The notes under the pieces: model-generated | The model's input: only the letters and a program-made list of their open reading frames with translations | What the model was told of the DNA's origin: nothing | Database searches by the model: none | Part shown: in pieces, positions 1-16,282 of the stretch | Layout: each line of letters begins with the position of its first letter | How positions within the stretch are numbered: the first letter of the stretch is position 1 | Source of the DNA: Runella aurantiaca | Lineage (GTDB): Bacteria > Bacteroidota > Bacteroidia > Cytophagales > Spirosomataceae | Assembly: GCF_003339505.1 (NCBI RefSeq) | Contig: NZ_QPIW01000003.1 | Span: 184,471-248,470 of the forward strand | Reading direction: 5' to 3' | Length of the DNA: 64,000 bases | Translations under genes and position numbers: made by a program

Positions 1-2669
1 GTACTGATATCACCCAGAGAATGGGTAAGCAGTACATCCAACTTACATTGCAGAAAAACTTCAAGGGTAAAGTCAGTATTGGTGCCATTTAGGTAGTAGC
101 CCGCAATATAAACCCTATCATAACTGCCTAAGGCAATGTCTCTCACAAGATATGGAGGCTCAAATAGTAGTTCTTCAGTATATCCTAGTGATGTTAGCAG
201 ATAAACCCCTTCTGTACCAAAACTATGGTCTAAAGTACCATCAGGCTTGAGGCGCATCAAAAATTCGGGATGGTAAATGAAGGAATTCTCACTGCTTCCG
301 CCTATCAACACATTGCCGTCCGGTTGGGCAATAACCGCAACGGGCTTGGTGGATACATTTGCCCCAAAGGACGTTGTAAATACGCCATCGCCCGAAAAAG
401 TGTTATCTATACTGCCGTCGGTATTGAACCGGGCTACCAAGGTTTGATTTGCTAAAATACCGGACAATATCAGCTTGTCGTTTGCCTGAACAGCGGCCTT
501 TATCCTCGTACTTTTACTTATTGCAACATTGGTCACTAATTTACCATCACCATCAAAAGTATTGTCTAAACTTCCGTTGGGATGTAAGCGATAGACCAGA
601 AAATGAGCACGGTCATCCTCAATTTCATCCATTTGAATAGACCCGCTCAAAACAATTTTATTGTTGGATAAAACGTGGATGTTGTATGCTCTTTCACTAC
701 AATTTAATGCTGCTCTCCGCTGATTGCTTTTTTTATTTTCAACACCACCAATACTTGTGTTGTCGAGACAACTGGTGGTCAAAATCTCCATTTTCCCATC
801 GGCGTCAAAAGCATTGTCCAAGCTCCCGTCGGTGGCATTGAGCCGAACCACAATTATCTTATTAACCGCATTTTGAATACTGTTACCCACCAACAGTATT
901 TTTCCGTCGGCCTGTTGAGTGATGCCGTACAAATAGTCTTCGCCCCCAATATTCATCATGACGCGCCCATTCGTCCCAAAAGTGTTGTCTAATGTTCCGT
1001 TGGCGTTTAATCTGACGACCACAAAATCCCGGTCGGTTCCATTGGAAATATGACCCGCCATTACGATTTTACCATCTGATTGTAACACCAGGCCATTGCC
1101 GTCAGGAACGTTGTCAATCACCGATTCAGCAAGGAGAAGTTTACCATCGCCGGAGAAAGTATCGTCTAAACGTCCAAAGCGCGTAAAGCGGGCAATGGCT
1201 ACGTAAGAGTTGGTCGTAACGGGGTCGTAGGCACTACCCACTTCAATGATTTTGTCGTCCGGCTGAACGACAATGTTTTGAGCACTTTCAATATATCCAT
1301 TCCCAAAAAAGGTGTAGATACGATTTTCCAGCGTTGCAAAACCATAAATGGAATGAATACGCGCCATGCAAAAATCCTGATTCGACCCGTTATCGGCCAT
1401 TCCTACAAGTACTATTTTTCCGTCGTTTTGCAGCGCCACGCCATATCCGTTGTCGTTTTCACCTTGTTCAAAAGCTATTTTCAGTTTGCCATCCGTCGAA
1501 AAAGTAGCGTTTAAATTACCAAAACGATCGTATTTCACTACGGCTACGTCGCTGTTGGCAGGTACAATGACACGCGTTCCGTCCAAAAGCACTATAATAG
1601 TCTCTTCCGTATGGCTCGACCCCACGGCTACAATGCTTCCGTCGGGAGAAAGGGTCACATCAAACGCAAGGTCATCTCCGGGGCCTACGGCGGTCGTTAA
1701 TTTACCATCGCCGCTAAACTGCGTATCCAAACTGCCGTTTGGATTGTACCTTATTAGGGCAAAGTCATTGTTTGAACCATTGGAGGAATAACCAGAAACG
1801 ACTATTTTTCCATCCGATTGGATAGCGAGCGCTTGCCCAAAATCATGACTCGTTCCAACAGGGGTGACCGCATAGCCATCTGCGTCAAAACCTGTATCCA
1901 AAGTGCCGTCAGGGTTGAGGCGGGCCGTTAAAAAGTCAAGGGTGTTCCCCCCAACCAAGGCATTATTACTGTTTCCTGCCACCACAATTTTACCATCGGT
2001 TTGGAGTTTTACCGATTTAGCTTCGCCTGCCGGGTAGTTGGTCATACTGTTGCCATAGAAGCCCATGTCTAAACTGCCGTCGGTATTGTATCTTCTGACC
2101 GCAATCTTTGGGTTGCTTATTCCTACTGCCACAATTTTGCCATCTGGCTGAATGGCCACATCATTAAATACATCCGAGCCATTTACACTTTCACGTACAA
2201 TGCCATCACCGCTGAATGTATTGTCTAAAGAGCCGTCTGTATTAAAGCGTAGCACCATAAACTCATAGTGATTAGGGTTGATGACAGAACGGGCAAAACC
2301 GACAACCACTATTTTATCATCCGACTGAAGGGCCACGGCCAGCCCTTGGGCCGTGCCACTTCCATCGGAGGCCGTTACCAATTGTGTCTTTTTGCCATTG
2401 CCCGCAAACGAATTGTCTAAAGTGCCGTTTTGAAGGTATTGGGCAATGAGCACCCGGTAAGCGTCGGTTTTGGCACCCACAACAATGAGTTTACCGGTCG
2501 AATTGATGGCTACATCATAAGCCGTTTCATTGGTTCCTGAAAAATCAGTAGTGACCTTCCCCGAAGTACTAAAAGGAATATCTAAAGCTCCCGACGATTG
2601 GGCTGCCGCCCCACGGGAAGCCATCAATAACAAGTAGGCAAATGCAAATGTCAAAACTGATTTTTTCAT
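1..2669 (-). CDS. delta-60 repeat domain secreted protein (5'-partial at window edge; N-terminus in window)
   Basis: ATG at 2667-2669 (reverse complement) gives MKKSVLTFAFAYLLLMASRGAAAQ signal peptide followed by repeated 'DGKIVVVG / NPDGSLDTxF' units. No stop-bounded minus ORF is listed for 1-2669, so the frame is open to position 1. Paralogous to the 10577-13381 gene. Confidence 0.7.
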   Translation of the reverse strand, partial: MKKSVLTFAFAYLLLMASRGAAAQSSGALDIPFSTSGKVTTDFSGTNETAYDVAINSTGKLIVVGAKTDAYRVLIAQYLQNGTLDNSFAGNGKKTQLVTASDGSGTAQGLAVALQSDDKIVVVGFARSVINPNHYEFMVLRFNTDGSLDNTFSGDGIVRESVNGSDVFNDVAIQPDGKIVAVGISNPKIAVRRYNTDGSLDMGFYGNSMTNYPAGEAKSVKLQTDGKIVVAGNSNNALVGGNTLDFLTARLNPDGTLDTGFDADGYAVTPVGTSHDFGQALAIQSDGKIVVSGYSSNGSNNDFALIRYNPNGSLDTQFSGDGKLTTAVGPGDDLAFDVTLSPDGSIVAVGSSHTEETIIVLLDGTRVIVPANSDVAVVKYDRFGNLNATFSTDGKLKIAFEQGENDNGYGVALQNDGKIVLVGMADNGSNQDFCMARIHSIYGFATLENRIYTFFGNGYIESAQNIVVQPDDKIIEVGSAYDPVTTNSYVAIARFTRFGRLDDTFSGDGKLLLAESVIDNVPDGNGLVLQSDGKIVMAGHISNGTDRDFVVVRLNANGTLDNTFGTNGRVMMNIGGEDYLYGITQQADGKILLVGNSIQNAVNKIIVVRLNATDGSLDNAFDADGKMEILTTSCLDNTSIGGVENKKSNQRRAALNCSERAYNIHVLSNNKIVLSGSIQMDEIEDDRAHFLVYRLHPNGSLDNTFDGDGKLVTNVAISKSTRIKAAVQANDKLILSGILANQTLVARFNTDGSIDNTFSGDGVFTTSFGANVSTKPVAVIAQPDGNVLIGGSSENSFIYHPEFLMRLKPDGTLDHSFGTEGVYLLTSLGYTEELLFEPPYLVRDIALGSYDRVYIAGYYLNGTNTDFTLEVFLQCKLDVLLTHSLGDIS

Positions 2670-2746
2670 GGTTTTGCTTTTAAATTGATTGCGGTTAACC
2701 TCTATATTAACATGCGTCGTAAATCATTCATTTTAAGCATTTTGTG

Positions 2747-5638
2747 CTAATTGCACCCGCCAATTTGAGCGGTAAACACCGCCCCAGTATCGGTTTTGAA
2801 TCCCGGGTTCAACTGTACATATTGGCTTGCCTGATAAATGACATTGGCCCCGCTGGGAATGGTATTAGGGCTTCCAGCAATTGAAATGACCGTCTCCGAA
2901 GCCAGTTGGTGGGTGGTGGCGGTTCCCGTAGGCGTAGCCGTAAACCCTTGCGGGCAGGGGGTGTACCGCCAGAGTTCAAAGCCGTGCTGTCCGTCATCGG
3001 CTACAAAGTATAGATTGCCTCCCATCTGCGTAAAATAGGGGGCAGTGGAAAATCCACTGTTATTGTCGGGGTTAAGGTCGGCAATCAGGACTGTACCGGC
3101 AGTAGTACCATTGCTTTTCCAAAGCTCCCGCCCGTGAAAACCGTCGGTTGCTGCAAAATAGGCCGTGCCACCAAAGTTGAAAAACCGGGTGGGATTGGAA
3201 CTGCTGCCTCCTGCCGCAATATCCTTGACCATCACCGTGCCGGCTGCAGTGCCATCACTTTTCCAGAATTCACGGCCGTTGGTCCCATCGCTTGCGGAGA
3301 AATAGAGGGTGTCTTTGATACTGACCAAACTCACAGCAAATGAGCTTCCCGTCGTATTGATGTCTTTGACCATCTCGGTTCCTGTCGCAGTGCCGTCACT
3401 TTTCCAAAGTTCTTCGCCATTAGTACCGTCATTGGCCTTAAAATACAATGTACCATTGATGTTCGTGAATGATCCCGGCGATGAGGGTGAGGTGCCGGAT
3501 CGAATATCTCTTACTAAAAAAATGGAAACTCCATCACTTTTAAAGAGTTCGATATCAGTAGCACTCGCATTAGGACCGGAAAAAAACAGGGTATTCCCAA
3601 TGGCGACGGGAGGTTCAATCTCATTCCAATCCATATTTATATCAGCTACTTTTACCGTCCCGGCGGTGGTCCCATCGCTTTTGTAGAGAGCGGGGCCCGT
3701 TGTAGTATAGGCAAAGAAAAATAAAGTCCCTGCAACGTTGGTAAGATATTTGGGCGCTCCGGGACCGGAATCGAGGTAAATATCTTTCACCATATCTGTT
3801 CCGCTCGCAGTACCGTCACTTTTCCACAATTCGGAACCGGCGGTATTGGTAGAAGCCCTAAAAAACAATGTCCCGTTCCATTCGGTTAGCTCTTCGGGAG
3901 AGGAAGAGTTTATCCCCAAGTTGATGTCTTTCACCAATACGGTTCCGGCAGCGGTGCCGTCGCTTCGCCAAAGTTCCCGGCCATGGATACCGTTTTCAGC
4001 AACAAAAAACAAGGTGTCATTGATATTGATAAGGTCGGTAGGTGAAGCGCTGAGGCTTCCAAAATTGAGGTCTTTTACCATGACTGTACCGGCAGAAGTG
4101 CCATCGCTTTTCCAAAGCTCTTCGCCGTTGATGCCATCATTTGCGGCGAAGAAAACTTTATTGCCCATCGTCACTACGTATTTGGGCTGAGCACTGACGG
4201 TATTGGCATTGGGCACTATCTTGCTCGTTCCGGGACCGGTGCCGTCGCTTTTCCAGAGTTCATTGATGGTGCTGTTGCTCCCATCTTGGGCCAGAAAGAT
4301 AAGGAATCCGGACAGGCTCACCGGTCCTTGTGGATAGCTGCTCCCGGCCCCGGCCCAAATGTCTTTGACTAAAGTTGTCCCTGCTGCCGACCCATTACTT
4401 TTCCAAAGTTCGGACCCATTGGTTCCATCATAGGCGGAAAAATAGAGCGTACTTCCTACCAATCTGAAAGAAGTAGGGTAACCGAAAGCCGCTCCACTGT
4501 TGATATCTTTAACCATCACCGTTCCCGCTGCAGTTCCGCTGCTTTTCCAGAGTTCCTGTCCGTTGGTTCCATCATTGGCTTCAAAATAAAAAACCAACGT
4601 GCTGGTATTGACGACAAAGGGCAGACCGTAATCAGTTATCCCACTTTCTGAGCCAGGATGTATATCTTTGACCAAGACGGTTCCGGCTCCTGTTCCATCA
4701 CTTTTCCAAAGTTCGCGACCGGCAGAGCCATTATCTGCGGTAAAATAAAGCGTCCCGTCTACATTTGTGAGTCTCTGAGGTGAAGGATCCGTCAAAGTTG
4801 CACTCGGAAAAATATCTCTGACCAATACCGTGCCGGCCGCAGTACCATCACTTTTCCAGAGTTCTCTTCCCTTTGTACCATTGTCAGCGGTAAAAAACAA
4901 AACATCCGTCGCAGCAACACCACCAAATGAACCGGCCCTGACAAGGGAGTTGGGATATGAGTGGGTAGTACCGGGATTGATGTCTTTGACCAATACAGTT
5001 CCCCCGGTAGTGCCATCGGTTTTCCACAATTCTCGACCATTGGCTGCATCAAAGGCCCCGAAATAGAGGATTCCCTGCACAATGGTAAAACTACTGGGAG
5101 CTGAATTGGCAGTTCCCGAATTGATATTTTTAATAATAACCGTTCCGGCAGCGGTGCCGTCGCTTTTCCAGAGTTCAAGCCCTTGCGAGGCAGTCATGGC
5201 CGCAAATACCAACTGCCCGTTGTAGGATACAAACCCCTGAGGTTCGGAACCAAGGCTGCCTGTATAAATATCTTTGACCATGACGGTACCGGCCGCGGTG
5301 CCGTCGCTTTTCCAAAGTTCTTCCCCATTGATGCCATCATTGGCGGTAAAGTAAAGTGTCCCGCTTACATTGATCAGGTTGAGAGGGTTAGAATCACCAA
5401 AGGCCGAAACGATGTGTTTGACCAATACCGTACCTGCTGCTGTTCCGTCGGTTTTCCACAGTTCAGAGGTACGTTTGACAAAATACATCTGTGAACCAAT
5501 GATCGCGGTGCCGTTATTTTCATCAACTTCAATTCCCGCCGCCACCGCATTGATGTCTTTGACTATTTGGAGGTTTTGGGCTTTGGGGATGAGGTATAAA
5601 AATTGCCAAATGAGCAATAAGAGAAATTGCTTTTTCAT
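2747..5638 (-). CDS. ELWxxDGT-repeat surface/secreted protein (963 aa)
   Basis: N-terminal signal peptide (MKKQFLLLLIWQFLYLIPKAQ). About 17 repeats of 'ELWKSDGTAAGTVLVKDI..' (ELWxxDGT repeat family). Conserved C-terminal tail '...LNPGFKTDTGAVFTAQIGGCN'. Confidence 0.85.
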   Translation of the reverse strand: MKKQFLLLLIWQFLYLIPKAQNLQIVKDINAVAAGIEVDENNGTAIIGSQMYFVKRTSELWKTDGTAAGTVLVKHIVSAFGDSNPLNLINVSGTLYFTANDGINGEELWKSDGTAAGTVMVKDIYTGSLGSEPQGFVSYNGQLVFAAMTASQGLELWKSDGTAAGTVIIKNINSGTANSAPSSFTIVQGILYFGAFDAANGRELWKTDGTTGGTVLVKDINPGTTHSYPNSLVRAGSFGGVAATDVLFFTADNGTKGRELWKSDGTAAGTVLVRDIFPSATLTDPSPQRLTNVDGTLYFTADNGSAGRELWKSDGTGAGTVLVKDIHPGSESGITDYGLPFVVNTSTLVFYFEANDGTNGQELWKSSGTAAGTVMVKDINSGAAFGYPTSFRLVGSTLYFSAYDGTNGSELWKSNGSAAGTTLVKDIWAGAGSSYPQGPVSLSGFLIFLAQDGSNSTINELWKSDGTGPGTSKIVPNANTVSAQPKYVVTMGNKVFFAANDGINGEELWKSDGTSAGTVMVKDLNFGSLSASPTDLININDTLFFVAENGIHGRELWRSDGTAAGTVLVKDINLGINSSSPEELTEWNGTLFFRASTNTAGSELWKSDGTASGTDMVKDIYLDSGPGAPKYLTNVAGTLFFFAYTTTGPALYKSDGTTAGTVKVADINMDWNEIEPPVAIGNTLFFSGPNASATDIELFKSDGVSIFLVRDIRSGTSPSSPGSFTNINGTLYFKANDGTNGEELWKSDGTATGTEMVKDINTTGSSFAVSLVSIKDTLYFSASDGTNGREFWKSDGTAAGTVMVKDIAAGGSSSNPTRFFNFGGTAYFAATDGFHGRELWKSNGTTAGTVLIADLNPDNNSGFSTAPYFTQMGGNLYFVADDGQHGFELWRYTPCPQGFTATPTGTATTHQLASETVISIAGSPNTIPSGANVIYQASQYVQLNPGFKTDTGAVFTAQIGGCN

Positions 5639-5714
5639 AAGTAATGCAGGGTTAAGAAAACTAAGAAGTTAAATCAAACAAGAGGCCTAAACTGCTCATT
5701 TTAATGGCTTTATA

Positions 5715-8564
5715 CTAGTTGCACCCATCAATTTTAGCAACAAACACCGCCCCAGTATCGGTTTTGAACCCTGGATTTAGCTGAACATATTTGCTTGCCT
5801 GATAAATGACATTGGCCCCGCTGGGAATGGTATTGGGGCTACCAGCAATTGAAATGACCGTCTCCGAAGCAAGTTGGTGAGTGGTAACGGTCCCCGTAGG
5901 GGTAGCCGTAAACCCTTGCGGGCATGGGGTGTACTTCCAGAGTTCAAAGCCATGCTGTCCGTCATCGGCTACAAAGTAGAGGGTGTTTCCAATAGAAGCA
6001 AAATGGGAGGTATAATAGGGCGCGCCGGGAAATCCGTTGTTATTGTCAGGGTTGAGGTCGGCAATCAGGACCGTACCGGCGGTGGTGCCATTGCTTTTCC
6101 ATAGCTCCCGGCCGTGAAGACCATCCGTTGCTGCAAAGTAGGCCATGCCACCCATATTGTAAATACCGTTAATCTCAGAATTACCTGCATAAATACCCTT
6201 TACTAAAGCAGTAGTAGCGGCACTACCGTTGCTTTTCCATAGACCCATGCCGTTAACACCATCATCTGCTTCAAAGAAAAGTGTACCATTAATATCGCAA
6301 AAACTATTGGGGCGTGAACTGCCTGTACTATTGATATCCGCAGCCAAAACGGTCCCTTCGACAGTCCCATCCGTTTTCCAAAGTTCCTGACCTTCAGGAA
6401 ACCTGTTTGCAGAAAAAAACAGGGTATTATTTACTTTGGTTAATCCAGAACAATAGAATTGATATCCCACATCTAATACTGTGGTTGTTATACCGTCGCT
6501 TTTAACAATTAACCAATAATTGTTTGAAACCTTCTCATAAGTAAAAAACAGACTATTGTCCATGACAGCCACCGAACCGATTCTCACATAAGGTCCAATA
6601 TTATCTACTTCTATAGTACCTGCGGCTGTACCATCACTTTTACAAAGAATGGTCTCCGGAGGCAAATCTCTTTCAATAAAGAAAAAGAGGGTGCCGTTTA
6701 CATTGGTAAGCCTGGTGGGGGTCGACGAATCAGTACCTGCGTTTAGGTCTTTTACCAATACAGTACCTGCTGATGTGCCATCTGTTTTCCAAAGTTCTCT
6801 CCCTGAATCACTTTTTGAAGCAACAAAAAAAAGGCGGTTTCCTATTCCCTCAAAATCAAAAGGAGAAGAATTACTGCTGCCCAGTTCAATGTCTTTTACC
6901 ATCACCGTGCCGGCATTCGTACCGTCAGACTTCCAAAGCTCTATGCCATTGGTTGAATTTGTGGCCGAAAAAAAGAGTGTTCCATTAAAATTGACCAGTG
7001 AGGACGGCGACGAACTTGAGCTGCCTACATTGATATCCTTTACCAATACAGTTCCTTCAGCCGTTCCATCAGATTTCCAAAGTTCCGTTCCGTTGATACC
7101 GTCGTTGGCTGAGAAGTAAATTAGTTGGCCAATACGCACTAGTTCTCGGGGTTCCCCTCCAAAGGTATGGCCTGGCATAATGATTTTATGCGTACCAAGC
7201 TCAGTACCATCACTTATCCAAAATTCTTGCTCTATCCCATCAGAAGCGCCAAAAATCAAACTTCCGGACAAATTGGCAAAAAAACCGGTGCTGGCATCAT
7301 TGCTGCCTGCCCTAATATCTTTTACCAATACCGTTCCTGCGGCTGAACCATCACTTTTCCATAATTCACGACCATGCACATCGTCATCAGCTGTAAAATA
7401 AAGGGTTGAACCAATATTCAATAAATTTGAGGGACTGCCGCTACCATTTGTATTGATGTCCTTTACCATGACTGTTCCTGCCGCGGTACCATTACTTTTC
7501 CAAAGTTCCCAATCGTTTGTGCCATCGTTTGCTCTGAAATAATACGTATTACCCACAACCCAAAAAACTGAACTAAATCCGGATTCACTGCCAACAAAAA
7601 TATCTTTTACCAATACTGTGTTGGCCGCAGTACCGCCTGATTTCCAAAGTTCTCGCCCAACGTCTGCACTGCTGGCTGAGAAGTAAAGCACTCCATCAAC
7701 ATTTGCCATCTCAGTGGGTGATGAAGATGCATCACCCACATATATATCTTCAACCATCACTGTCCCTGCTGTTGTACCATCGCTTTTCCACAATTCAAGG
7801 CCATGAGTTCCATCATTGGCCCTAAAAAATAACACACCGTTATTTACCAAATAACTACTCACATTGGTTAGTTTATCGGGGGTTGAAGAGTCATCTCCCG
7901 GATTAATGTCTTTCACTAAAACCGTACCGCCTGTTGTACCGTCCGTTTTCCAAAGTTCTTCTCCATTGGCGGTAGTTTGTGCTGAAAAATAAAGAACACC
8001 TTTGACCGCTTTGAACCCGTGAGGATACGAATTTGCACTGCCTGTCTCGATGTCTTTGACAATGGCAGTACCCGAATAAGTGCCGTCAGACTTCCAAATT
8101 TCAATCCCTTTTGCTTCATTTTTAGCCGAAAAAATCAGTTCACCATTGTATGCTGTAAAGTCTTCTGGGTTTGAATCGGAACTGCCGACAAAAATATCTT
8201 TCACCAAGATAGTACCGGCGGCCGTCCCATCAGTTTTCCAAAGTTCTTTGCCCGAAACGCCATCGTTCGCACTAAAAAAAACCGTTCCTGCTACATTAGT
8301 TAAATTATCAATTCTCGCATCCCCGCTGGCAGAAATAATATGTTTGACCAATACCGTTCCGATTGAAGTACCGTCAGTTTTCCAGATTTCTGAAGGCTCT
8401 TTTACAAAATATAAAATTGAGCCAACTACTGCCTGTTTGCCTACATTAGGCATCCCCGCCGCCACCGCATTGATGTCTTTGACCATTTGAGGATTTTGTG
8501 CAAGTACCAATTGCGCCATGCCAAACAATAGGCAGAATGTAAAGAGGTAGGGTTGTTTTTTCAT
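5715..8564 (-). CDS. ELWxxDGT-repeat surface/secreted protein, tandem paralog (about 950 aa)
   Basis: The ORF track's longest form (to 8699) begins with non-signal junk. The likely true start is MKKQPYLFTFCLLFGMAQLVLAQ, with ATG at 8562-8564. Same ELWKSDGT repeats; the C-terminal ~70 aa are nearly identical to the upstream paralog. Confidence 0.8.
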   Translation of the reverse strand: MKKQPYLFTFCLLFGMAQLVLAQNPQMVKDINAVAAGMPNVGKQAVVGSILYFVKEPSEIWKTDGTSIGTVLVKHIISASGDARIDNLTNVAGTVFFSANDGVSGKELWKTDGTAAGTILVKDIFVGSSDSNPEDFTAYNGELIFSAKNEAKGIEIWKSDGTYSGTAIVKDIETGSANSYPHGFKAVKGVLYFSAQTTANGEELWKTDGTTGGTVLVKDINPGDDSSTPDKLTNVSSYLVNNGVLFFRANDGTHGLELWKSDGTTAGTVMVEDIYVGDASSSPTEMANVDGVLYFSASSADVGRELWKSGGTAANTVLVKDIFVGSESGFSSVFWVVGNTYYFRANDGTNDWELWKSNGTAAGTVMVKDINTNGSGSPSNLLNIGSTLYFTADDDVHGRELWKSDGSAAGTVLVKDIRAGSNDASTGFFANLSGSLIFGASDGIEQEFWISDGTELGTHKIIMPGHTFGGEPRELVRIGQLIYFSANDGINGTELWKSDGTAEGTVLVKDINVGSSSSSPSSLVNFNGTLFFSATNSTNGIELWKSDGTNAGTVMVKDIELGSSNSSPFDFEGIGNRLFFVASKSDSGRELWKTDGTSAGTVLVKDLNAGTDSSTPTRLTNVNGTLFFFIERDLPPETILCKSDGTAAGTIEVDNIGPYVRIGSVAVMDNSLFFTYEKVSNNYWLIVKSDGITTTVLDVGYQFYCSGLTKVNNTLFFSANRFPEGQELWKTDGTVEGTVLAADINSTGSSRPNSFCDINGTLFFEADDGVNGMGLWKSNGSAATTALVKGIYAGNSEINGIYNMGGMAYFAATDGLHGRELWKSNGTTAGTVLIADLNPDNNNGFPGAPYYTSHFASIGNTLYFVADDGQHGFELWKYTPCPQGFTATPTGTVTTHQLASETVISIAGSPNTIPSGANVIYQASKYVQLNPGFKTDTGAVFVAKIDGCN

Positions 8565-10576: not shown

Positions 10577-13381
10577 TTACGGATCGTTTGGGTTGAGGGT
10601 ATAAGAACAGACAAGCCCCATTTCGGCTTTAAAAACCGCTCCCGGCTCCACCTTAAAGCCCGGTTTTAATTCAATAAAATCCTTTGCTTTGCAGGCTACA
10701 TTTGCCGTTCCCAAGACCCAATTGGTTGCCTGAATCGCTTTGCCAGTTTCGGGGTTATTGATGCGATTGAGGCTGATGTCATCGTTGGGATGGGTCAACG
10801 AAACTATTTGAGGGTTGAGTTTACATTGGAGAAAAATAGAAAGGGTCATGTCGAAGTTGGTGCCATTGTCGTACGAACCTGCAACATACACCCGGTCGTA
10901 ATTGCCCAACGCCATAGCGCCGAAACGGTCGTCTTCGTATCCTAAATTAGGGAAGGTATAAGCACCATTGAATCCAAAATTGAGATCAGTCGTCCCGTTG
11001 GCATTGACCCGCAGGAGGGTTTTACTCCAAGTATTAAGGCCAAACACATCGCCTCCCACTAGGATTTTACCACTCGCCAATACCTTGATTGCATAAGCCC
11101 TGTTATCTGCTGGATAGCTAGTAGAAGTATAGATACCGTCGCCCGAGAACGTATTGTCGAGGCTACCGTCTACGTTATAGCGAACGAGCACCATCACCCC
11201 CGAAACCAGTGCAAGTCGTCCTCCTATGATGAGTTTACCGTCGGGCTGAATGGCCGAACACCAACCCAACGCCTGTTCCATCCCAAAATCAGTCACTGCT
11301 TTTCCATCCCCATCAAAGGTATTATCCAGACTTCCGTCGGCATTGAGCCGATAGGCTACAAAGTCTTGATTAAGTTCGTAGCCGCTGATGATGATCTTGT
11401 TGTTAAAAATATGGACCGAATTGATTTCATCGGTCCCGATGGTTCCCCCCAATTCTACCTTGCCGTCGGTATCGAATGAGACATCCAATGTACCGTTTGG
11501 CAAGAGCCTTGCCACCGTAGATTTATAAATACCTATGCCACCGGTAGAGATACTGTAGCCCGCCAACACGATTTTGCCGTCCGGTTGCAGGGCCATTGCT
11601 TTGCAATAGTCTAACCCGAAAATATTGACCAGCACTTTTCCATTGGTTCCGAAAGTATTGTCCGTCGTACCGTCAGGCAACAACCTTATCACCGCAAAGT
11701 CACTATCGGTGCCATTGTATGCTTGCCCCGCCACTACGATTTTTCCATCAGGCTGAAGGGCGATGGCATTGGCGTATGCCTCATTGGGCAGGATGGTACT
11801 GCTAATGATGAGTTTTCCATCTCCCGAGAATGTTTCATCCAAAGCTCCGCTCCTTAGATACCTCGCAATGGCAAATTGTTTAGCAGCGCTTGAAGTGGTA
11901 TAACCAGCCACCAGTATTTTTTCATCCGGCTGAACGACCATACAGCGCGCCTGCTCTGCTTCATCGCCAAAAGAGAGATACAACCTGTTTTCAAGGGTGT
12001 AAAAACGGTAAAAGCCATGCAAACGACAGATGCCAAAGTCTTCGTTGGTGCCATTATGAACCGAGCCGGCCACGATGATTTTGCCGTCATTTTGCAAAAG
12101 CATTGTATTCCCTTTGTCATGCTTTCCTTCTGTAAAAGGGATGGTGCGAATACCATCTCCTGAAAATAAGGTGTTTAAGTCCCCATCGGATTGATACACC
12201 AGCACCACAAAGTCGTCGTTGGCGGGAACATCAATAATAGCGCGGGTACCATCCAACAGAATTACTTCATAGCTATACGCCGGCGTTCGGGTGGTGCCGC
12301 CAACGACAATGTCGCCGTTGGGTTGGAGGGTTATCGCATTGCCCCGGTCGTCGCCGGGATTGATAGAGGTCGTTTGTTTACCAGTGTCGTTGAAGTTTAA
12401 ATCCAAACTGCCATTCTCGTTGTAGCGTACCAAGGCTACGTCATCGCTTGTACCGTTCCAGATTTTACCTGCCAAAACAATCTTTCCATCCTCCTGAACA
12501 GCTAGGTCGTAGGCATAGTCGTCGGTAGAGTTGCCAATGTCTGTGATGGCCTTGCCGTCGGTATCGAAGGTATTATCTAAAGTCCCGTTGGCATTCAGAC
12601 GCATCACCCCAAAATCTCTATCGGGTGCCATAAACTCCCACGTGTATCCTCCTACCACTATTTTACCGTCAGGTTGCAAAGCAACTCCCCGAGCTACGCC
12701 TTGAAAAACGCCGAAAACCGTACCTGCACTGCCAAAATCTGCATCTAATGTACCCGTACTCAAATAACGCCGTACCACAAACTGACTGTTTTGGGAGCCC
12801 GCCACCACTATTTTTCCATCCGTTTGGACTGCAACATCATAATAAAAGTCGTTCAAACTGGCATGGGTACGGATTGACCCCGTGCCGTTGAACGTATTGT
12901 CTATGTTGCCGTTGGGCAGATACCTCAAAATGACGAAATCGTACAATTTATTGGGGTCCGAAGTATCGTGTACCTGCCCGACCACCACTATTTTTCCGTC
13001 AGACTGGATGGCCACGGCATTGGCCTGTGCAGTAAGCCCTGAGTAACTGAAAACCACTTTACCATCAGTTGAGAAAGTATTGTCTAAAGTGCCGTTAGGC
13101 AGTAAACGTATGGTAGCGAGTCCACCGTTGCTGCTTCCAACCACTACTATTTTTCCGTCTGATTGCAGGGCTGAACCCAACGCAAATTCGATGCCGTTGC
13201 TGGCCCCCGGAAAGGTGATGGAGTTTTTTCCATTCGTGGAAAAATCAACGTCCAATGCGCCGTTAACCTGAGCTTGCACCGTTTGAAAGTAAAAGAGAAG
13301 CCAGCAAAGAGGAATCATTTGATGCCTAATTGTACGAAGGAGGCACTGCGCATAATAAGCAGGAGTGATAAAGGTTTTCAT
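10577..13381 (-). CDS. delta-60 repeat domain protein (934 aa; alternative start at 13318 possible)
   Basis: More than 15 repeats of 'LxPDGxLDxxFxxDGKxxxxxG' / 'DGKIVVAG', as in delta-60/β-propeller repeat proteins. Signal peptide ...FYFQTVQAQ. C-terminal tail 'DFIELKPGFKVEPGAVFKAEM' resembles the ELW protein tails. Confidence 0.8.
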   Translation of the reverse strand: MKTFITPAYYAQCLLRTIRHQMIPLCWLLFYFQTVQAQVNGALDVDFSTNGKNSITFPGASNGIEFALGSALQSDGKIVVVGSSNGGLATIRLLPNGTLDNTFSTDGKVVFSYSGLTAQANAVAIQSDGKIVVVGQVHDTSDPNKLYDFVILRYLPNGNIDNTFNGTGSIRTHASLNDFYYDVAVQTDGKIVVAGSQNSQFVVRRYLSTGTLDADFGSAGTVFGVFQGVARGVALQPDGKIVVGGYTWEFMAPDRDFGVMRLNANGTLDNTFDTDGKAITDIGNSTDDYAYDLAVQEDGKIVLAGKIWNGTSDDVALVRYNENGSLDLNFNDTGKQTTSINPGDDRGNAITLQPNGDIVVGGTTRTPAYSYEVILLDGTRAIIDVPANDDFVVLVYQSDGDLNTLFSGDGIRTIPFTEGKHDKGNTMLLQNDGKIIVAGSVHNGTNEDFGICRLHGFYRFYTLENRLYLSFGDEAEQARCMVVQPDEKILVAGYTTSSAAKQFAIARYLRSGALDETFSGDGKLIISSTILPNEAYANAIALQPDGKIVVAGQAYNGTDSDFAVIRLLPDGTTDNTFGTNGKVLVNIFGLDYCKAMALQPDGKIVLAGYSISTGGIGIYKSTVARLLPNGTLDVSFDTDGKVELGGTIGTDEINSVHIFNNKIIISGYELNQDFVAYRLNADGSLDNTFDGDGKAVTDFGMEQALGWCSAIQPDGKLIIGGRLALVSGVMVLVRYNVDGSLDNTFSGDGIYTSTSYPADNRAYAIKVLASGKILVGGDVFGLNTWSKTLLRVNANGTTDLNFGFNGAYTFPNLGYEDDRFGAMALGNYDRVYVAGSYDNGTNFDMTLSIFLQCKLNPQIVSLTHPNDDISLNRINNPETGKAIQATNWVLGTANVACKAKDFIELKPGFKVEPGAVFKAEMGLVCSYTLNPNDP

Positions 13382-13675: not shown

Positions 13676-14317
13676 TTAAACAAGCTGATGTTGTACCGCG
13701 TATTTGATCAATGCAAATGAAGAATTGACGCCGAGTTTTCGGAAAATATTCCGACGATGGGTTTCAATGGTGAAATAGCTCAAATTAAGTTCCCGAGCCA
13801 TTTCAAGCCCGGTCATTTCTTGCGCAATTAGTCGGATGATTTCTATTTCGCGGCGAGTGAGGGCTTCGTCGTGTGGGAGCATTTTTTCCGCCTGCGTCAG
13901 TGGCTGTGTCAAGGTATCCATGACCGTTTCCGAAAAAAACGTATGTCCTTGCGACAAGCTTACGATGGCGCTTTGAAGTTCGGCTTTGGTGGCTTTTTTC
14001 GATAAATATCCTTTTACACCCGCTTGAATAGCGGTTCGGATTCCTTCGGCATCTTCACGGGTGGTAAGCATGAGTACTTTCAGGTGCGGGTGGGTTCTAC
14101 GCAGAGCAAGGGTCAATTGAACACCGTCCATCTGCGGCATAAAGTAGTCGCAGATGAGCACTTCAACCTCGCAAAAAGACAGCTTACTGAGGGCTTCCTC
14201 TCCACCAAAGGCCGTTCCCACCAACTCCACCCCCTCAATTGCCCCTAGTAGCATGGTCATACTCTCGATAAAAATGGTATGGTCGTCTACCAGAAATATT
14301 TTAATGGGGGAAGCCAT
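13676..14317 (-). CDS. two-component response regulator, NarL/LuxR family (REC + HTH_LuxR)
   Basis: IKIFLVDDH...D...LVICDYFMP (receiver motifs). C-terminal 'LTRREIEIIRLIAQEMTGLEMARELNLSYFTIETHRRNIFRKLG' is a LuxR-type HTH. Confidence 0.9.
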   Translation of the reverse strand: MASPIKIFLVDDHTIFIESMTMLLGAIEGVELVGTAFGGEEALSKLSFCEVEVLICDYFMPQMDGVQLTLALRRTHPHLKVLMLTTREDAEGIRTAIQAGVKGYLSKKATKAELQSAIVSLSQGHTFFSETVMDTLTQPLTQAEKMLPHDEALTRREIEIIRLIAQEMTGLEMARELNLSYFTIETHRRNIFRKLGVNSSFALIKYAVQHQLV

Positions 14318-14392
14318 GGTGTGTAGAAGTCATGATTTATGTTTTAATTAATAAAAAAACTATATTGGTTACAATACATCAAGGGAAAAAAT

Positions 14393-16282
14393 ATGAGAGC
14401 ATTTACCAAACGGTCGGTAGTACTGTCTATCATTATACTGTTTTCTGTGGTTACTTACGGGCAGTATTTTAGGGTCAGTTATTCCGTTGATAGTCTCAAA
14501 AAAGTATTATTAGCCGTTGAAAGCAAATCCGCGCCCACCCAAAAAAAAGAAATACTTACGCTCAATACCTTAATCGCAACTGCATTCAACAAAGATGCTC
14601 AGTTTGACAGCAGTTTGAGTTTGTTGAGAAAAATTCTCCCTGAATTGCAGGCTCAAAATATGCTTAATGAGATTGCCGAAGCTCATTTCCATATCGGGTG
14701 GGCACTGCAAAAAAGAGAGTTGTACTTTGAGGCCGTTAAATCTTTTGAGGAAGCCATCGTGGCGGCCCAAAAAGCAAAAAACGACAGTTTGCTTGCCATC
14801 AGTCATCACTGGGCAGGGATAAGCTATAGCGACCAAAAAGTCTATCCTAAAAGCCTTTGGCATTATAAAAAAGAGCTTGAAATTTGTAAAAAAGCAAAAC
14901 TTAAATTTCAACATGCCGATTGCCTAAACTCCATTGGACTCCACTATTTTGGGTTTGAAAAAATTGATTCAGCATTTTATTTTTTCGATGTATGTCGCAA
15001 AATTTCCGAGAAGAATCAGTTTGATATACTCCTCCCGATTTCTTACAAAAATGTAGGAAAATGCTACTGGGCGCTTGGCAATGAACAAAAGGGAACGGAC
15101 TTTATTTATCGCTCAATAGAACTTTTTCTGAATCACAAAAACCCTAGAATTCGATATTTGTCTATGTACAGCTACATTGAGCTGGCTCGCTATTATGCCA
15201 ACAAAAAAAACTATAATTTGTCAAACCAAAATGCTTTGAAAGGTTTAAAAATCAACGCATTGGCCAATTTTACCGATTTGCAGCAAGATTTTTCATTCCT
15301 TCTATATAAAAATCACAAAGCCACAAAACAAACTTTAGAAGCCCTGCAATATTTAGAAATATACCAAAAAGCTTCCGAAAAAATCAACCAAAATTATTTG
15401 GCACAACAGCACGCAGCATTGGATGAACGAGTGCAAAATGAGCAACAAAAAAACCAGATATACGTACTCAATCAAGAAAAAATAGCCAAACAACGAGAAA
15501 GAAACTGGTTAATAGGAGGGTTAACTGTTGCAGGAATGTTCCTATTTGTCATTGGCAAACTCTACCAGACAAATAGAAAACAAAAAAAAGTAATCCAAAA
15601 AGCTAATGAACAACTGGAAGAAAAAGTAAAACTGCGCACTGCTGAACTCCAAAGGGCATTAGACGAAATAAAACAAGCCATGCTCAAAGGTCAAAAATTG
15701 GAACGAACCCGCGTAGCTGCCGAGTTGCACGACAACCTAGGAAGTTTGCTTTCGGCCATTAGCATCAGTATGGAAGTGGTCGAAATTGGTGAACTATCTC
15801 TCCACGAGCAGCAAATTTTTGCGGGAATCCAACAACAAATAAATGCGGCTTATCACCATGTACGCCTGCTTGCTCATAATCTTCAGCCTGCTGAGCTGGA
15901 GAGAGAAGGATTAAAAAAGGCCTTGGAAATTTTTGCGGCTAAAATTAACCAAAGCAAATACTTTCACCTGACGCTTGATACCACTGCCCTTGTTCCTCTC
16001 TCTAAAGATTTGGAGTTTACATTGTACTCTATTTGCTTAGAGCTCATCAATAATACCCTTAAACATGCCCAAGCTACCCAAGTACGAATCGCTTTTGATC
16101 AACAAACGGCTCACCGCTGGCAGATGATTGTAGCCGATAATGGCAAAGGTATGATGCCCAACACAAAAGAGGGGTTTGGTATCCAAAACATCAGAAATCG
16201 TCTCGAACAAATAGGAGCAACTCTCCATATAATTCAAGAAAAGGGATTGACCTTTTTGATTGATTTTAAGACGGATGAATAA
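14393..16282 (+). CDS. sensor histidine kinase, TPR-repeat periplasmic/sensor region + HisKA_3 + HATPase_c
   Basis: N-terminal signal/TM, TPR-like repeats, internal TM (WLIGGLTVAGMFLFVIG), coiled coil, H-box 'RVAAELHDNLGSLLSAI', and a C-terminal ATPase (NGKGM...GFGIQNIRNR). Divergent from the NarL-type regulator. Confidence 0.85.
   Translation: MRAFTKRSVVLSIIILFSVVTYGQYFRVSYSVDSLKKVLLAVESKSAPTQKKEILTLNTLIATAFNKDAQFDSSLSLLRKILPELQAQNMLNEIAEAHFHIGWALQKRELYFEAVKSFEEAIVAAQKAKNDSLLAISHHWAGISYSDQKVYPKSLWHYKKELEICKKAKLKFQHADCLNSIGLHYFGFEKIDSAFYFFDVCRKISEKNQFDILLPISYKNVGKCYWALGNEQKGTDFIYRSIELFLNHKNPRIRYLSMYSYIELARYYANKKNYNLSNQNALKGLKINALANFTDLQQDFSFLLYKNHKATKQTLEALQYLEIYQKASEKINQNYLAQQHAALDERVQNEQQKNQIYVLNQEKIAKQRERNWLIGGLTVAGMFLFVIGKLYQTNRKQKKVIQKANEQLEEKVKLRTAELQRALDEIKQAMLKGQKLERTRVAAELHDNLGSLLSAISISMEVVEIGELSLHEQQIFAGIQQQINAAYHHVRLLAHNLQPAELEREGLKKALEIFAAKINQSKYFHLTLDTTALVPLSKDLEFTLYSICLELINNTLKHAQATQVRIAFDQQTAHRWQMIVADNGKGMMPNTKEGFGIQNIRNRLEQIGATLHIIQEKGLTFLIDFKTDE

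What the first reader, a model, noticed from the sequence alone, without database searches (positions are those of the whole stretch)
2747..8564. Tandem ELWxxDGT giant paralogs with near-identical 3' ends
The two about 950-aa repeat proteins are clearly diverged over most of their length. However, the last ~270 bp, up to the stop codon, are roughly 90% identical at the nucleotide level (2747-3015 vs 5715-5983). A further ~120 bp upstream is similarly conserved. This pattern is typical of gene conversion, or of strong selection on a shared C-terminal targeting module. It also offers a recombination substrate for deleting or duplicating the repeat arrays.
Basis: seen in the sequence. Interest (0 to 1): 0.6.

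Follow-up and report, generated by a model that had tools for sequence, protein, structure and literature searches.

The report
Mosaic tandem propeller genes sharing tails
Two neighbouring genes for large secreted repeat proteins in the bacterium Runella aurantiaca are old, very different copies. DNA recombination has kept or made their last ~0.45 kb alike, which is a familiar way for surface-protein gene families to evolve and not a new kind of system.

Summary
Window 2747-3015 and 5715-5983 are 240/269 (89%) identical, and a further ~120 bp upstream is 86% identical. The gene bodies are 57% identical at nucleotide level, with synonymous sites saturated.

The two genes are A (2747-5638) and B (5715-8564), both on the minus strand. 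Each encodes a signal peptide, ~17 ELWxxDGT repeats (TIGR04534) and a C-terminal GCX_COOH "3-coathanger stack" domain (NF045639). The organism is Runella aurantiaca.

The shared tail comes from recombination, not from protein-level selection alone:
- Third-codon positions are 69-80% identical in the tail and 37% in the body.
- Similarity runs 38 nt past the stop codon.
- A's body groups with its Runella rosea orthologue, but in the tail A and B are each other's closest relatives.

The event is not recent: tail dS is about 0.42, close to the between-species divergence.

Related Runella loci carry one, two or remnant copies. They show every tested combination of two 5' leaders, three bodies and two tails. 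The 5' leaders join the bodies at a universal 45-nt box.

Whether the GCX_COOH domain is a targeting signal is plausible but untested. This is an ordinary example of a known phenomenon.

The parts
2747..5638 (-). Gene A: 963-aa protein with a signal peptide, ~17 ELWxxDGT repeats and a C-terminal GCX_COOH domain
   Evidence: ORF and translation. TIGR04534 scores 1010.6 bits (cut-off 65) and NF045639 scores 64 bits (cut-off 26). The body is orthologous to R. rosea ros_974 at 89% nt identity.
5715..8564 (-). Gene B: 949-aa paralogue with the same architecture. The ORF runs up to 8699, but the MKKQ start at 8564 lies 17 nt after the stop of the upstream gene.
   Evidence: TIGR04534 907 bits, NF045639 61.8 bits. 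The body has no orthologue in four related loci (53-60% aa identity) and has GC3 0.36, against 0.48-0.50 for all other bodies.
2709..3010 (-). Shared tract 2, copy in A: the last 87 codons (end of the last repeat, linker, GCX_COOH), the stop codon and 38 nt downstream
   Evidence: 90% nt and 80% third-position identity to the B copy. dS is 0.42. Downstream, 24/38 nt match.
5677..5978 (-). Shared tract 2, copy in B
   Evidence: Same evidence as the A copy. GC3 within B jumps from about 0.33-0.37 to 0.52-0.57 at the start of the shared 3' region.
3059..3175 (-). Shared tract 1, copy in A (codons 822-860, penultimate and last ELWxxDGT repeat)
   Evidence: 87% nt and 69% third-position identity. 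Corresponds to repeat family D9.
6039..6155 (-). Shared tract 1, copy in B
3011..3058 (-). Divergent patch between the two tracts, in A (16 codons). A matches the R. rosea orthologue here and B does not.
   Evidence: Site patterns: A=R but not B at 14 sites, B=R but not A at 4, A=B but not R at 0. The 12-nt indel is visible.
5979..6038 (-). Divergent patch in B (20 codons, B-specific)
2750..2968 (-). C-terminal module of A (73 aa): a Cys-Pro start, a Thr/Pro linker and the GCX_COOH domain, ending in GGCN-COOH
   Evidence: NF045639 matches aa 925-963. A profile search found 1059 relatives, nearly all at the extreme C-terminus of the protein. AF2 model: all-beta, pLDDT 76-82 over the last 40 residues.
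5718..5936 (-). C-terminal module of B (73 aa), 92% identical to that of A, ending in DGCN-COOH
5532..5581 (-). Conserved 5' box in A (encodes AQNLQIVKDINAVAAGI, just after the signal peptide)
   Evidence: 44/50 nt identical to the B copy. The box is shared by all 7 Runella genes at this locus, whatever leader or body they carry.
8452..8501 (-). Conserved 5' box in B
5639..5714 (-). B-to-A intergenic spacer. Its first ~38 nt are homologous to the spacer after A. Its last ~20 nt (TAACCCTGCATT) are the 'beta' upstream element seen before the 949-aa gene in locus L083.
1..2669 (-). Partial delta-60 repeat gene (d60') downstream of A. It has 889 codons and runs off the left end of the window.
   Evidence: Open frame from the ATG at 2669; 91% aa identity to L083_972. 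Repeat families D6/D7 are shared with 10577-13381.
10577..13381 (-). Delta-60 repeat protein, the third protein in the window that carries a GCX_COOH-type tail
   Evidence: TIGR02608 539.8 bits and NF045639 47 bits. Its tail is only 30% identical to that of A. The protein is WP_114460192, Runella aurantiaca.

Best explanation
A and B are ancient, collinear paralogues. Each encodes a Sec-exported ELWxxDGT repeat protein (probably a beta-propeller) of Runella aurantiaca that ends in a GCX_COOH domain.

Their near-identical 3' ends are a recombination mosaic. About 0.45 kb has a much younger common ancestor than the rest of the two genes. This stretch covers the last one and a half repeats, the linker, the GCX_COOH domain and ~38 nt of downstream spacer, and it is interrupted by one B-specific patch. 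The cause is non-reciprocal homologous exchange, that is, gene conversion or segmental replacement.

The exchange is old, roughly as old as the split between Runella species. Since then both copies have been under purifying selection.

The locus as a whole behaves as a set of exchangeable modules:
- two 5' leader types (alpha and beta), joined to the bodies at a universal ~45-nt box;
- three very different repeat bodies (A, B, C);
- two tail types (T1, T2).

The conserved ends act as homology handles, and bodies are swapped, duplicated or deleted between them.

Shown here: the mosaic structure, the synonymous-site contrast, the conflict between tract and body relationships, and the copy-number and chimeric variants.

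Inferred, not shown:
- B's body is the foreign piece, sitting between ends native to the locus (argued from GC3).
- The proteins are exported.
- The GCX_COOH tail is a sorting or anchoring module.
For: (1) Segment-limited identity. The body is 57% nt and 37% third-position identical. The tracts are 87-90% nt and 69-80% third-position identical. Permutation tests gave 0/2000.

(2) Synonymous divergence. Body pS is 0.77 (saturated). Tract pS is 0.32 for codons 875-963 and 0.41 for codons 822-874, giving dS 0.42 and 0.59.

(3) Non-coding extension. 24/38 nt match after the stop codon, in fixed register, P = 6e-6.

(4) Conflicting relationships when R. rosea ros_974 (R) is added. In the body, sites where A=R but B differs number 166-233 per 200 codons, against 10-20 for each other pattern. 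In the tracts, A=B-not-R is 37, A=R-not-B is 20 and B=R-not-A is 18. Tract p-distances are A-B 0.108, A-R 0.153 and B-R 0.158, and A-B is the closest pair in 98.5% of bootstraps.

(5) Composition. Within B, GC3 steps from 0.36 in the body to 0.54 in the tail. All other bodies have GC3 0.48-0.50 and all tails 0.48-0.55.

(6) Modular variants in related loci. L080/L081 have one gene (alpha + C + T2). R. rosea has two (alpha + A + T1 and alpha + C + T2). L083/L086 have a 90-aa A-type remnant, then d60', then beta + C + T2. The window has alpha + B + T1 and beta + A + T1.

(7) A contrast case. In the Pirellula pair L028 the tail has high aa identity but background third-position identity, which is what selection alone produces. 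Tandem ELWxxDGT pairs in other phyla (L008, L072, L036, and L032 at the 5' end) show the same terminal synonymous-site homogenisation as here.

(8) The tail is not strongly conserved as a protein across species. T1 and T2 tails are about 36% different at nucleotide level, and the best external match to the module is 41% aa.
Against: - The tract is not young. Its dS of about 0.42 is similar to the flanking-gene dS between R. aurantiaca and R. rosea (0.50) or L080 (0.31).
- Outgroup-polarised sites in the tract are almost star-like: 8 derived sites shared by A and B, 6 by A and R, 5 by B and R. An exchange within this genome after speciation is therefore favoured but not proven.
- Direction cannot be fixed. 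Both A's and B's tails are further from ros_974's tail (dS 0.76-0.79) than A's body is from ros_974's body (dS 0.28).
- No close relative of B's body or of the T1 tail exists in the searched collections, so the donor is unknown.
- Only 87 + 39 codons carry the signal, so the dS estimates have large errors.
Confidence: 0.82

Rival explanations
1. No exchange happened inside this genome. B arrived by horizontal transfer or allelic replacement from a related Runella lineage and already carried a T1-type tail. The tail similarity is then simply the ordinary divergence between lineages of a slowly diverging module, while the bodies belong to ancient allele classes.
For: Tract dS (0.42) is about the same as species-level dS (0.31-0.50). 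Polarised site patterns are nearly star-like. B's body has an atypical GC3 of 0.36. A-body to ros_974 dS (0.28) is below flank dS, which hints at allele movement between species.
Against: A-B is the closest pair in 98.5% of bootstraps. B's 5' leader and upstream DNA are syntenic and native to the locus, so B is in any case a recombinant. A B-specific patch interrupts the tract, as expected from patchy heteroduplex repair. The spacer after B's stop is homologous to the spacer after A's. This rival still requires recombination at the body/tail junction and differs only in where that recombination took place.
Confidence: 0.2
2. Purifying selection on a functionally critical C-terminal module, without any recombination, keeps the two tails alike.
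For: dN/dS in the tract is about 0.1. The GCX_COOH domain is a widespread conserved module.
Against: Selection on the protein does not conserve synonymous sites (80% vs 37% third-position identity) or non-coding DNA past the stop. The related T2 tails and external GCX_COOH domains are far more diverged. L028 shows what selection alone looks like.
Confidence: 0.03
3. A recent whole-gene tandem duplication was followed by very rapid diversifying evolution of the repeat body, with the tail lagging behind.
For: The genes are collinear, tandem and of equal architecture.
Against: Body synonymous sites are saturated while tail sites are not. A's body has changed little since the split from R. rosea (dS 0.28, dN 0.054), so the body is not fast-evolving. 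The GC3 of B's body differs from the locus norm.
Confidence: 0.03
4. Assembly artefact: a repeat was collapsed or duplicated by the assembler.
For: Repeat-rich genes are hard to assemble. The exact A and B proteins are absent from the protein collection although their neighbours are present.
Against: The copies differ at 29 of 269 positions and by a 12-nt indel. Both frames are intact. The bodies are 43% different. Related genomes from independent assemblies show the same modules.
Confidence: 0.01

Closest known systems
Helicobacter pylori bab (babA/babB/babC) and other Hop outer-membrane-protein paralogues
   Same: The paralogues have divergent middle regions and homologous 5' and 3' regions. 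Intragenomic homologous recombination and gene conversion at those ends produce chimeric genes and variable copy number and locus occupancy among strains (PMC4552749, which cites Pride & Blaser 2002 for concerted evolution of duplicated elements).
   Different: The proteins are unrelated: autotransporter-like OMP adhesins there, ELWxxDGT propeller repeats with a GCX_COOH tail here. bab conversions are frequent and observable within infections. Here the exchange is old (dS about 0.4), the genes are tandem rather than at dispersed loci, and no phase-variable repeats were seen.
ELWxxDGT repeat proteins (NCBIfam TIGR04534)
   Same: A and B are clear members, with ~17 repeats of 46-56 aa each. Like homologues in other phyla, they pair the repeat body with a lineage-specific C-terminal module. 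Tails resembling T9SS CTD, PEP-CTERM, MYXO-CTERM and RTX/T1SS types appear among relatives.
   Different: The tail here is GCX_COOH rather than a characterised sorting signal. The family has no published functional study in the searched literature.
GCX_COOH / 3-coathanger stack domain (NCBIfam NF045639)
   Same: Both tails score above the cut-off and end in G-C-X-COOH. They share the upstream Cys-Pro seen in most relatives.
   Different: Nothing is known about what the domain does. No solved structure is related by fold or by sequence profile.
T9SS C-terminal sorting domains of Bacteroidota (type A TIGR04183/PF18962, type B TIGR04131)
   Same: Both sit in the same position (extreme C-terminus of Sec-exported proteins in Bacteroidota) and attach promiscuously to many kinds of secreted protein. 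The T9SS CTD is a C-terminal export signal (PMC4804311).
   Different: No sequence match to either T9SS CTD model. The GCX_COOH core is shorter (~50-70 aa), is bracketed by two cysteines and is predicted to be solenoid-like rather than a beta-sandwich (moderate confidence).

Membership tests
ELWxxDGT repeat protein (TIGR04534) | HMM score above the curated cut-off (65 bits) | tested here: met
   A scores 1010.6 bits over 18 stretches; B scores 907.1 bits over 16 stretches.
ELWxxDGT repeat protein (TIGR04534) | Tandem ~47-aa units carrying the E-L-W-x-x-D-G-T motif | tested here: met
   17 motif anchors in A and 16 in B, spaced 46-56 aa apart (one 88-aa gap in B). The 144-nt DNA periodicity appears.
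GCX_COOH / 3-coathanger stack domain (NF045639) | HMM score above the curated cut-off (26 bits) | tested here: met
   A 64.0 bits, B 61.8 bits, d60 47.0 bits.
GCX_COOH / 3-coathanger stack domain (NF045639) | Located at the extreme C-terminus and ending in Gly-Cys-X | tested here: met
   A ends in GGCN and B in DGCN. 114 of 149 representative hits have a Cys within the last 4 residues.
GCX_COOH / 3-coathanger stack domain (NF045639) | Three-layer stacked 'coathanger' fold | tested here: inconclusive
   The AF2 model with a 58-sequence alignment has mean pLDDT 66.6 (76-82 over the last 40 residues) and is all-beta. The layers were not inspected. No PDB match has E < 1.
T9SS C-terminal sorting domain (type A TIGR04183/PF18962; type B TIGR04131) | Match to a T9SS CTD profile at the C-terminus | tested here: not met
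   No such hit at E <= 0.01 in NCBIfam or Pfam for A, B or d60.
T9SS C-terminal sorting domain | T9SS-dependent secretion and cleavage of the CTD | not testable with these tools
   Needs T9SS mutants and proteomics.
Gene conversion / concerted evolution between paralogues | Segment-limited excess identity that includes synonymous sites | tested here: met
   Third-position identity is 0.69-0.80 in the tracts and 0.37 in the body. pS is 0.32-0.41 in the tracts and 0.77 in the body. Permutations gave 0/2000.
Gene conversion / concerted evolution between paralogues | Phylogenetic conflict between the segment and the rest of the gene | tested here: met
   The body groups as ((A, ros_974), B). In the tract A-B is the closest pair, with 98.5% bootstrap support.
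Gene conversion / concerted evolution between paralogues | Homology continues into adjacent non-coding DNA | tested here: met
   24/38 nt match after the stop codon, P = 6e-6.
Gene conversion / concerted evolution between paralogues | Identified donor and recipient (polarity) | tested here: inconclusive
   GC3 suggests that B's ends are native to the locus and its body is foreign. However, both tails are equally far from ros_974's tail (dS 0.76 and 0.79).
Programmed antigenic-variation or shufflon-type cassette system | A site-specific recombinase, or silent donor cassettes, next to the expression locus | tested here: not met
   Pfam found no recombinase among seven proteins at the locus: genes A and B themselves plus five proteins encoded upstream. 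The only truncated copy seen is a 90-aa remnant in L083. The rest of the genome was not available.

The most novel reading that the evidence does not exclude
The locus is a standing cassette-exchange system. A universal 45-nt 5' box and the ~0.45-kb tail serve as portable homology handles. They let Runella lineages swap whole propeller bodies, within and between genomes. This would be driven by diversifying selection on a surface-exposed protein, for example a target of phages or grazers. In this reading GCX_COOH is a previously uncharacterised C-terminal sorting or anchoring signal of Bacteroidota that must travel with every body.
Probability: 0.2. Interest if true: 0.55.

Novelty: new member of a known kind. 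Interest (0 to 1): 0.3.

Why it matters
This is a clean, quantified example of mosaic evolution in a large family of secreted repeat proteins that nobody has characterised. The conserved ends are homology handles maintained at the DNA level, not just conserved protein domains. Similar terminal homogenisation appears in tandem ELWxxDGT pairs from several other phyla.

For annotation, the result warns that such paralogues cannot be placed on one tree.

For biology, it points to the GCX_COOH tail as an obligatory, always-terminal module. That tail occupies the slot that known sorting signals fill in homologues, so it is a reasonable candidate for an uncharacterised export or anchoring signal. None of this changes current understanding of recombination.

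Tried and rejected
- Exact-sequence look-ups of A, B, the response regulator and d60 in the gene-position index all failed. The organism was identified only through cluster look-up of neighbouring proteins.
- A genome-collection scan with the 128-aa tail found no close relative; the best match was 41%.
- Word-indexed protein searches gave little. The 128-aa tail returned only repeat-region hits. The 73-aa module returned nothing. B's body returned only relatives at 49% identity or less.
- Two metagenome scans gave no relative of B's body and only 40-50% relatives of the T1 module. The origin of B's body therefore stays unknown.
- Single-sequence AlphaFold of the last 177 aa was useless (pLDDT 35).
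- With the alignment-based model, the PDB fold search gave nothing below E = 1.8 and the PDB profile search nothing meaningful. The afdb50 library was unavailable.
- The promoter/terminator scan was at background level.
- Rfam gave only a sub-threshold SECIS_4 hit.
- A literature search for ELWxxDGT, GCX_COOH and "coathanger stack" found no paper.
- Rejected explanations: selection only, rapid body divergence after a recent duplication, and assembly artefact (see the rival explanations).
Full report
**What is there**

The region holds two tandem genes on the minus strand. Gene A is 2747-5638 (963 aa). Gene B is 5715-8564 (949 aa). B's ORF is open up to 8699, but the MKKQ start at 8564 lies 17 nt after the stop of the upstream 438-aa gene.

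Both proteins start with a hydrophobic signal-peptide-like leader that ends in AQN (read directly from the sequence). Both score far above the cut-off for the ELWxxDGT repeat model TIGR04534 (1010.6 and 907.1 bits; cut-off 65). Both end in the NCBIfam GCX_COOH "3-coathanger stack" domain NF045639 (64.0 and 61.8 bits; cut-off 26). Pfam adds nothing specific. Motif anchors give 17 units in A and 16 in B, spaced about 48 aa apart. For most of the first ten units the best match, or a near-best one, lies on the diagonal, so the two genes are collinear whole-gene paralogues.

The same strand carries more genes. Downstream of A is a partial delta-60 repeat gene (d60', 1-2669, running off the window). 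Upstream of B are a 438-aa gene, a 185-aa SnoaL-like gene and a complete delta-60 repeat protein (10577-13381) that also ends in a GCX_COOH-type tail. Cluster look-up of the neighbouring proteins identifies the organism as Runella aurantiaca (WP_147277005, WP_114460191, WP_114460192).

**Checking the observation**

The quoted stretch 2747-3015 vs 5715-5983 is 240/269 = 89.2% identical. The "further ~120 bp" (3055-3175 vs 6035-6155) is 104/121 = 86% identical. The repeat finder and blastn recover the same blocks and find no third copy in the window.

| A codons | aa identity | nt identity | third-position identity |
|---|---|---|---|
| 37-821 (body) | 54% | 57% | 37% |
| 822-860 (tract 1) | 92% | 87% | 69% |
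| 861-876 (patch) | 50% | 63% | 50% |
| 877-963 (tract 2) | 93% | 90% | 80% |

The maximal identity segment scores 199, against a permutation mean of 23 and maximum of 49 (0/2000). Third positions alone also give 0/2000.

**Selection or recombination**

Nei-Gojobori estimates give pS 0.77 (saturated) for the first 835 codons. For codons 875-963, pS is 0.32 (dS 0.42) and dN is 0.043. Protein-level selection cannot hold synonymous sites.

The similarity also continues past the stop codon. In fixed register, 24 of the next 38 nt match (P = 6e-6), after which identity falls to 5/40. No Rfam family reaches its gathering score in the region, so nothing suggests a nucleotide-level element.

A useful contrast comes from other tandem ELWxxDGT pairs found in the genome scan. 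In the Pirellula pair L028 the tail has raised aa identity (about 0.8) but background third-position identity (0.33-0.5). That is the signature of selection alone. Terminal blocks with third-position identity of 0.85-1.0 occur in L008 (a cyanobacterium), L072 (Bacteroidota), L036, and at the 5' end in L032 (Actinomycetota). Terminal homogenisation at the DNA level therefore recurs in this family.

**Comparative evidence**

Four related loci were recovered through the conserved neighbours.

| Locus | Gene order between the 438-aa gene and DUF2279 |
|---|---|
| L080 / L081 | 438 -> one ELWxxDGT gene C (952 aa) -> DUF2279 |
| Runella rosea (L082) | 436 -> ros_974 -> two small ORFs -> ros_961 -> DUF2279 |
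| L083 / L086 | 439 -> 90-aa remnant -> d60' (972 aa) -> 949-aa gene -> DUF2279 |
| Window (R. aurantiaca) | 438 -> B -> A -> d60' -> (off the window) |

There are two tail types. T1 is carried by A, B and ros_974. T2 is carried by L080_C, ros_961, L083_949 and L086_949.

ros_974 is the orthologue of A from codon 33 to the end (89% nt identity). Its first 30 codons and upstream DNA, however, are B-like. B's body has no orthologue anywhere (53-60% aa identity to all).

Three-way site patterns make the conflict explicit, with R standing for ros_974:
- In the body, sites where A=R but B differs number 166-233 per 200 codons, against 10-20 for each other pattern.
- In the two tracts the counts are A=B-not-R 37, A=R-not-B 20 and B=R-not-A 18.
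- In the 16-codon patch between the tracts B keeps its own sequence (14 vs 4 vs 0).

Tract p-distances are A-B 0.108, A-R 0.153 and B-R 0.158. A-B is the closest pair in 98.5% of bootstraps. So the body groups as ((A, ros_974), B), while in the tail A and B are each other's closest relatives. This is the signature of recombination.

**Age and direction**

The exchange is not recent. Tract dS (0.42) is about the same as the flanking-gene dS between R. aurantiaca and R. rosea (0.50) or L080 (0.31). Outgroup-polarised sites in the tract are nearly star-like (8, 6 and 5).

Composition gives a hint on polarity. B's body has GC3 0.36. Every other body at this locus has 0.48-0.50 and every tail 0.48-0.55. 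Within B, GC3 steps up exactly at the tract boundary. My inference is that B's ends are native to the locus and its body is the foreign piece.

Polarity is still unresolved, because the tails of A and B are equally distant from ros_974's tail (dS 0.76 and 0.79), and that distance is larger than A-body to ros_974-body (0.28).

**A modular locus**

Aligning the first 180 nt plus 60 nt upstream of all seven genes shows a universal ~45-nt box, GCCCAAAAC..CA.ATGGTCAAAGACATCAATGCGGTGGCGGCGGG. In A it lies at 5532-5581 and in B at 8452-8501, with 44/50 nt identical.

Two unrelated leader/upstream types precede the box. Alpha follows the 438-aa gene. Beta is preceded by TAACCCTGCATT. Three unrelated bodies follow the box. 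The combinations alpha+A, alpha+B, alpha+C, beta+A and beta+C all exist.

The B-to-A spacer is itself composite. It has ~38 nt homologous to the spacer after A, followed by the ~20-nt beta upstream element that lies between d60' and the 949-aa gene in L083.

The single-gene loci L080/L081 (alpha+C+T2) look like deletion chimeras formed through the box. The 3' tracts remain usable substrates, since their longest exact match is 42 nt.

**What the tail may do**

A profile of the three window tails found 1059 representatives at E <= 1e-3 among 1.84 billion proteins, in proteins of 57-2473 aa. The match sits at the extreme C-terminus in nearly all of them. Of 149 representatives, 114 have a Cys within the last four residues.

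The bodies attached to this tail are diverse secreted-type proteins: metalloproteases, an ExeM/NucH-like nuclease, Ycf48/BNR-like and SBBP propellers, parallel beta-helices and other ELWxxDGT proteins. Two of them also carry "choice-of-anchor Q" domains. Most share a Cys-Pro about 70 residues before the terminal Gly-Cys-X. A bracketing disulfide is my inference from this.

ELWxxDGT homologues in other phyla end instead in tails whose sequences I recognise as T9SS CTD, PEP-CTERM-like, MYXO-CTERM-like or RTX/T1SS-type. GCX_COOH therefore occupies the slot of a sorting or anchoring signal. It does not match the T9SS CTD models.

An AlphaFold model built with 58 aligned sequences is all-beta, with pLDDT 76-82 over the last 40 residues. 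It has no significant PDB neighbour by fold or by profile. The function is therefore inferred, not shown.

**Comparison with known systems, and verdict**

The closest analogue in behaviour is the H. pylori bab/Hop outer-membrane-protein paralogues. There, homologous 5' and 3' regions flank divergent middles and mediate gene conversion, chimeras and variable copy number (PMC4552749). In membership, A and B belong to the ELWxxDGT and GCX_COOH families and are not T9SS-CTD proteins.

The finding is real and its gene-conversion reading is supported, with the qualifiers that the exchange is old and of unresolved polarity. It is a new example of a well-known kind of event in an unstudied protein family. 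Interest is modest.

Noticed in passing
window 5532-5581 and 8452-8501; L080, L082, L083: A ~45-nt box encoding AQNxQxVKDINAVAAG is nearly identical in all seven Runella ELWxxDGT genes at this locus. It sits exactly where leader type (alpha/beta) and body type (A/B/C) are reassorted, so it is a likely recombination junction.
   Followed up: yes
window 1-2669 (-): A partial delta-60 repeat gene (889 codons with no stop, running off the left edge). It is 91% identical to the 972-aa gene of L083. Its GCX-type tail begins right at the window edge, so what follows it in R. aurantiaca is unknown.
   Followed up: partly
window 10577-13381 (-): The delta-60 protein has a GCX_COOH-type domain that does not end in Gly-Cys-X. 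It continues ...MGLVCSYTLNPNDP, and this extension is conserved in four Runella loci. It may be a variant tail class.
   Followed up: partly
window 5639-5714: The B-to-A spacer is composite. About 38 nt are homologous to the spacer after A, and these are followed by a ~20-nt TAACCCTGCATT element that precedes the 949-aa gene in L083. This suggests a past deletion of a d60' copy between two ELWxxDGT genes.
   Followed up: partly
L082 (Runella rosea CP030850) 15427-15700: The 60 nt upstream of ros_961 duplicate the 3' end of the 436-aa gene (a 62-aa ORF remnant). In R. rosea, therefore, a segment that included the upstream gene's end was duplicated along with the alpha leader.
   Followed up: partly
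window 2750-5540 vs L082 ros_974: A's body is closer to its R. rosea orthologue (dS 0.28) than the flanking genes are (dS 0.50). This may reflect transfer of the A allele between species, or codon bias.
   Followed up: no
window 2747-8564: The exact A and B protein sequences are absent from the 15-billion-protein collection, although the three upstream neighbours from the same contig are present. The public annotation may treat A and B as pseudogenes or may use different gene models.
   Followed up: no
L008, L072, L036, L032 (other phyla): Tandem ELWxxDGT paralogues in a cyanobacterium, a Bacteroidota MAG, a Planctomycetota MAG and an Actinomycetota MAG also have terminal blocks with third-position identity of 0.85-1.0, against 0.4-0.6 bodies. 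The tail types differ from the one here.
   Followed up: partly
window 13676-16282: A LuxR-type response regulator and a TPR-containing HisKA_3 histidine kinase sit next to the locus and are syntenic in all related loci. They may regulate the surface-protein genes.
   Followed up: no
window 8476-8508 (-): A sub-threshold Rfam SECIS_4 hit (24.2 bits against a gathering score of 38, E 0.055) overlaps the conserved 5' box of B. It is most likely chance.
   Followed up: no
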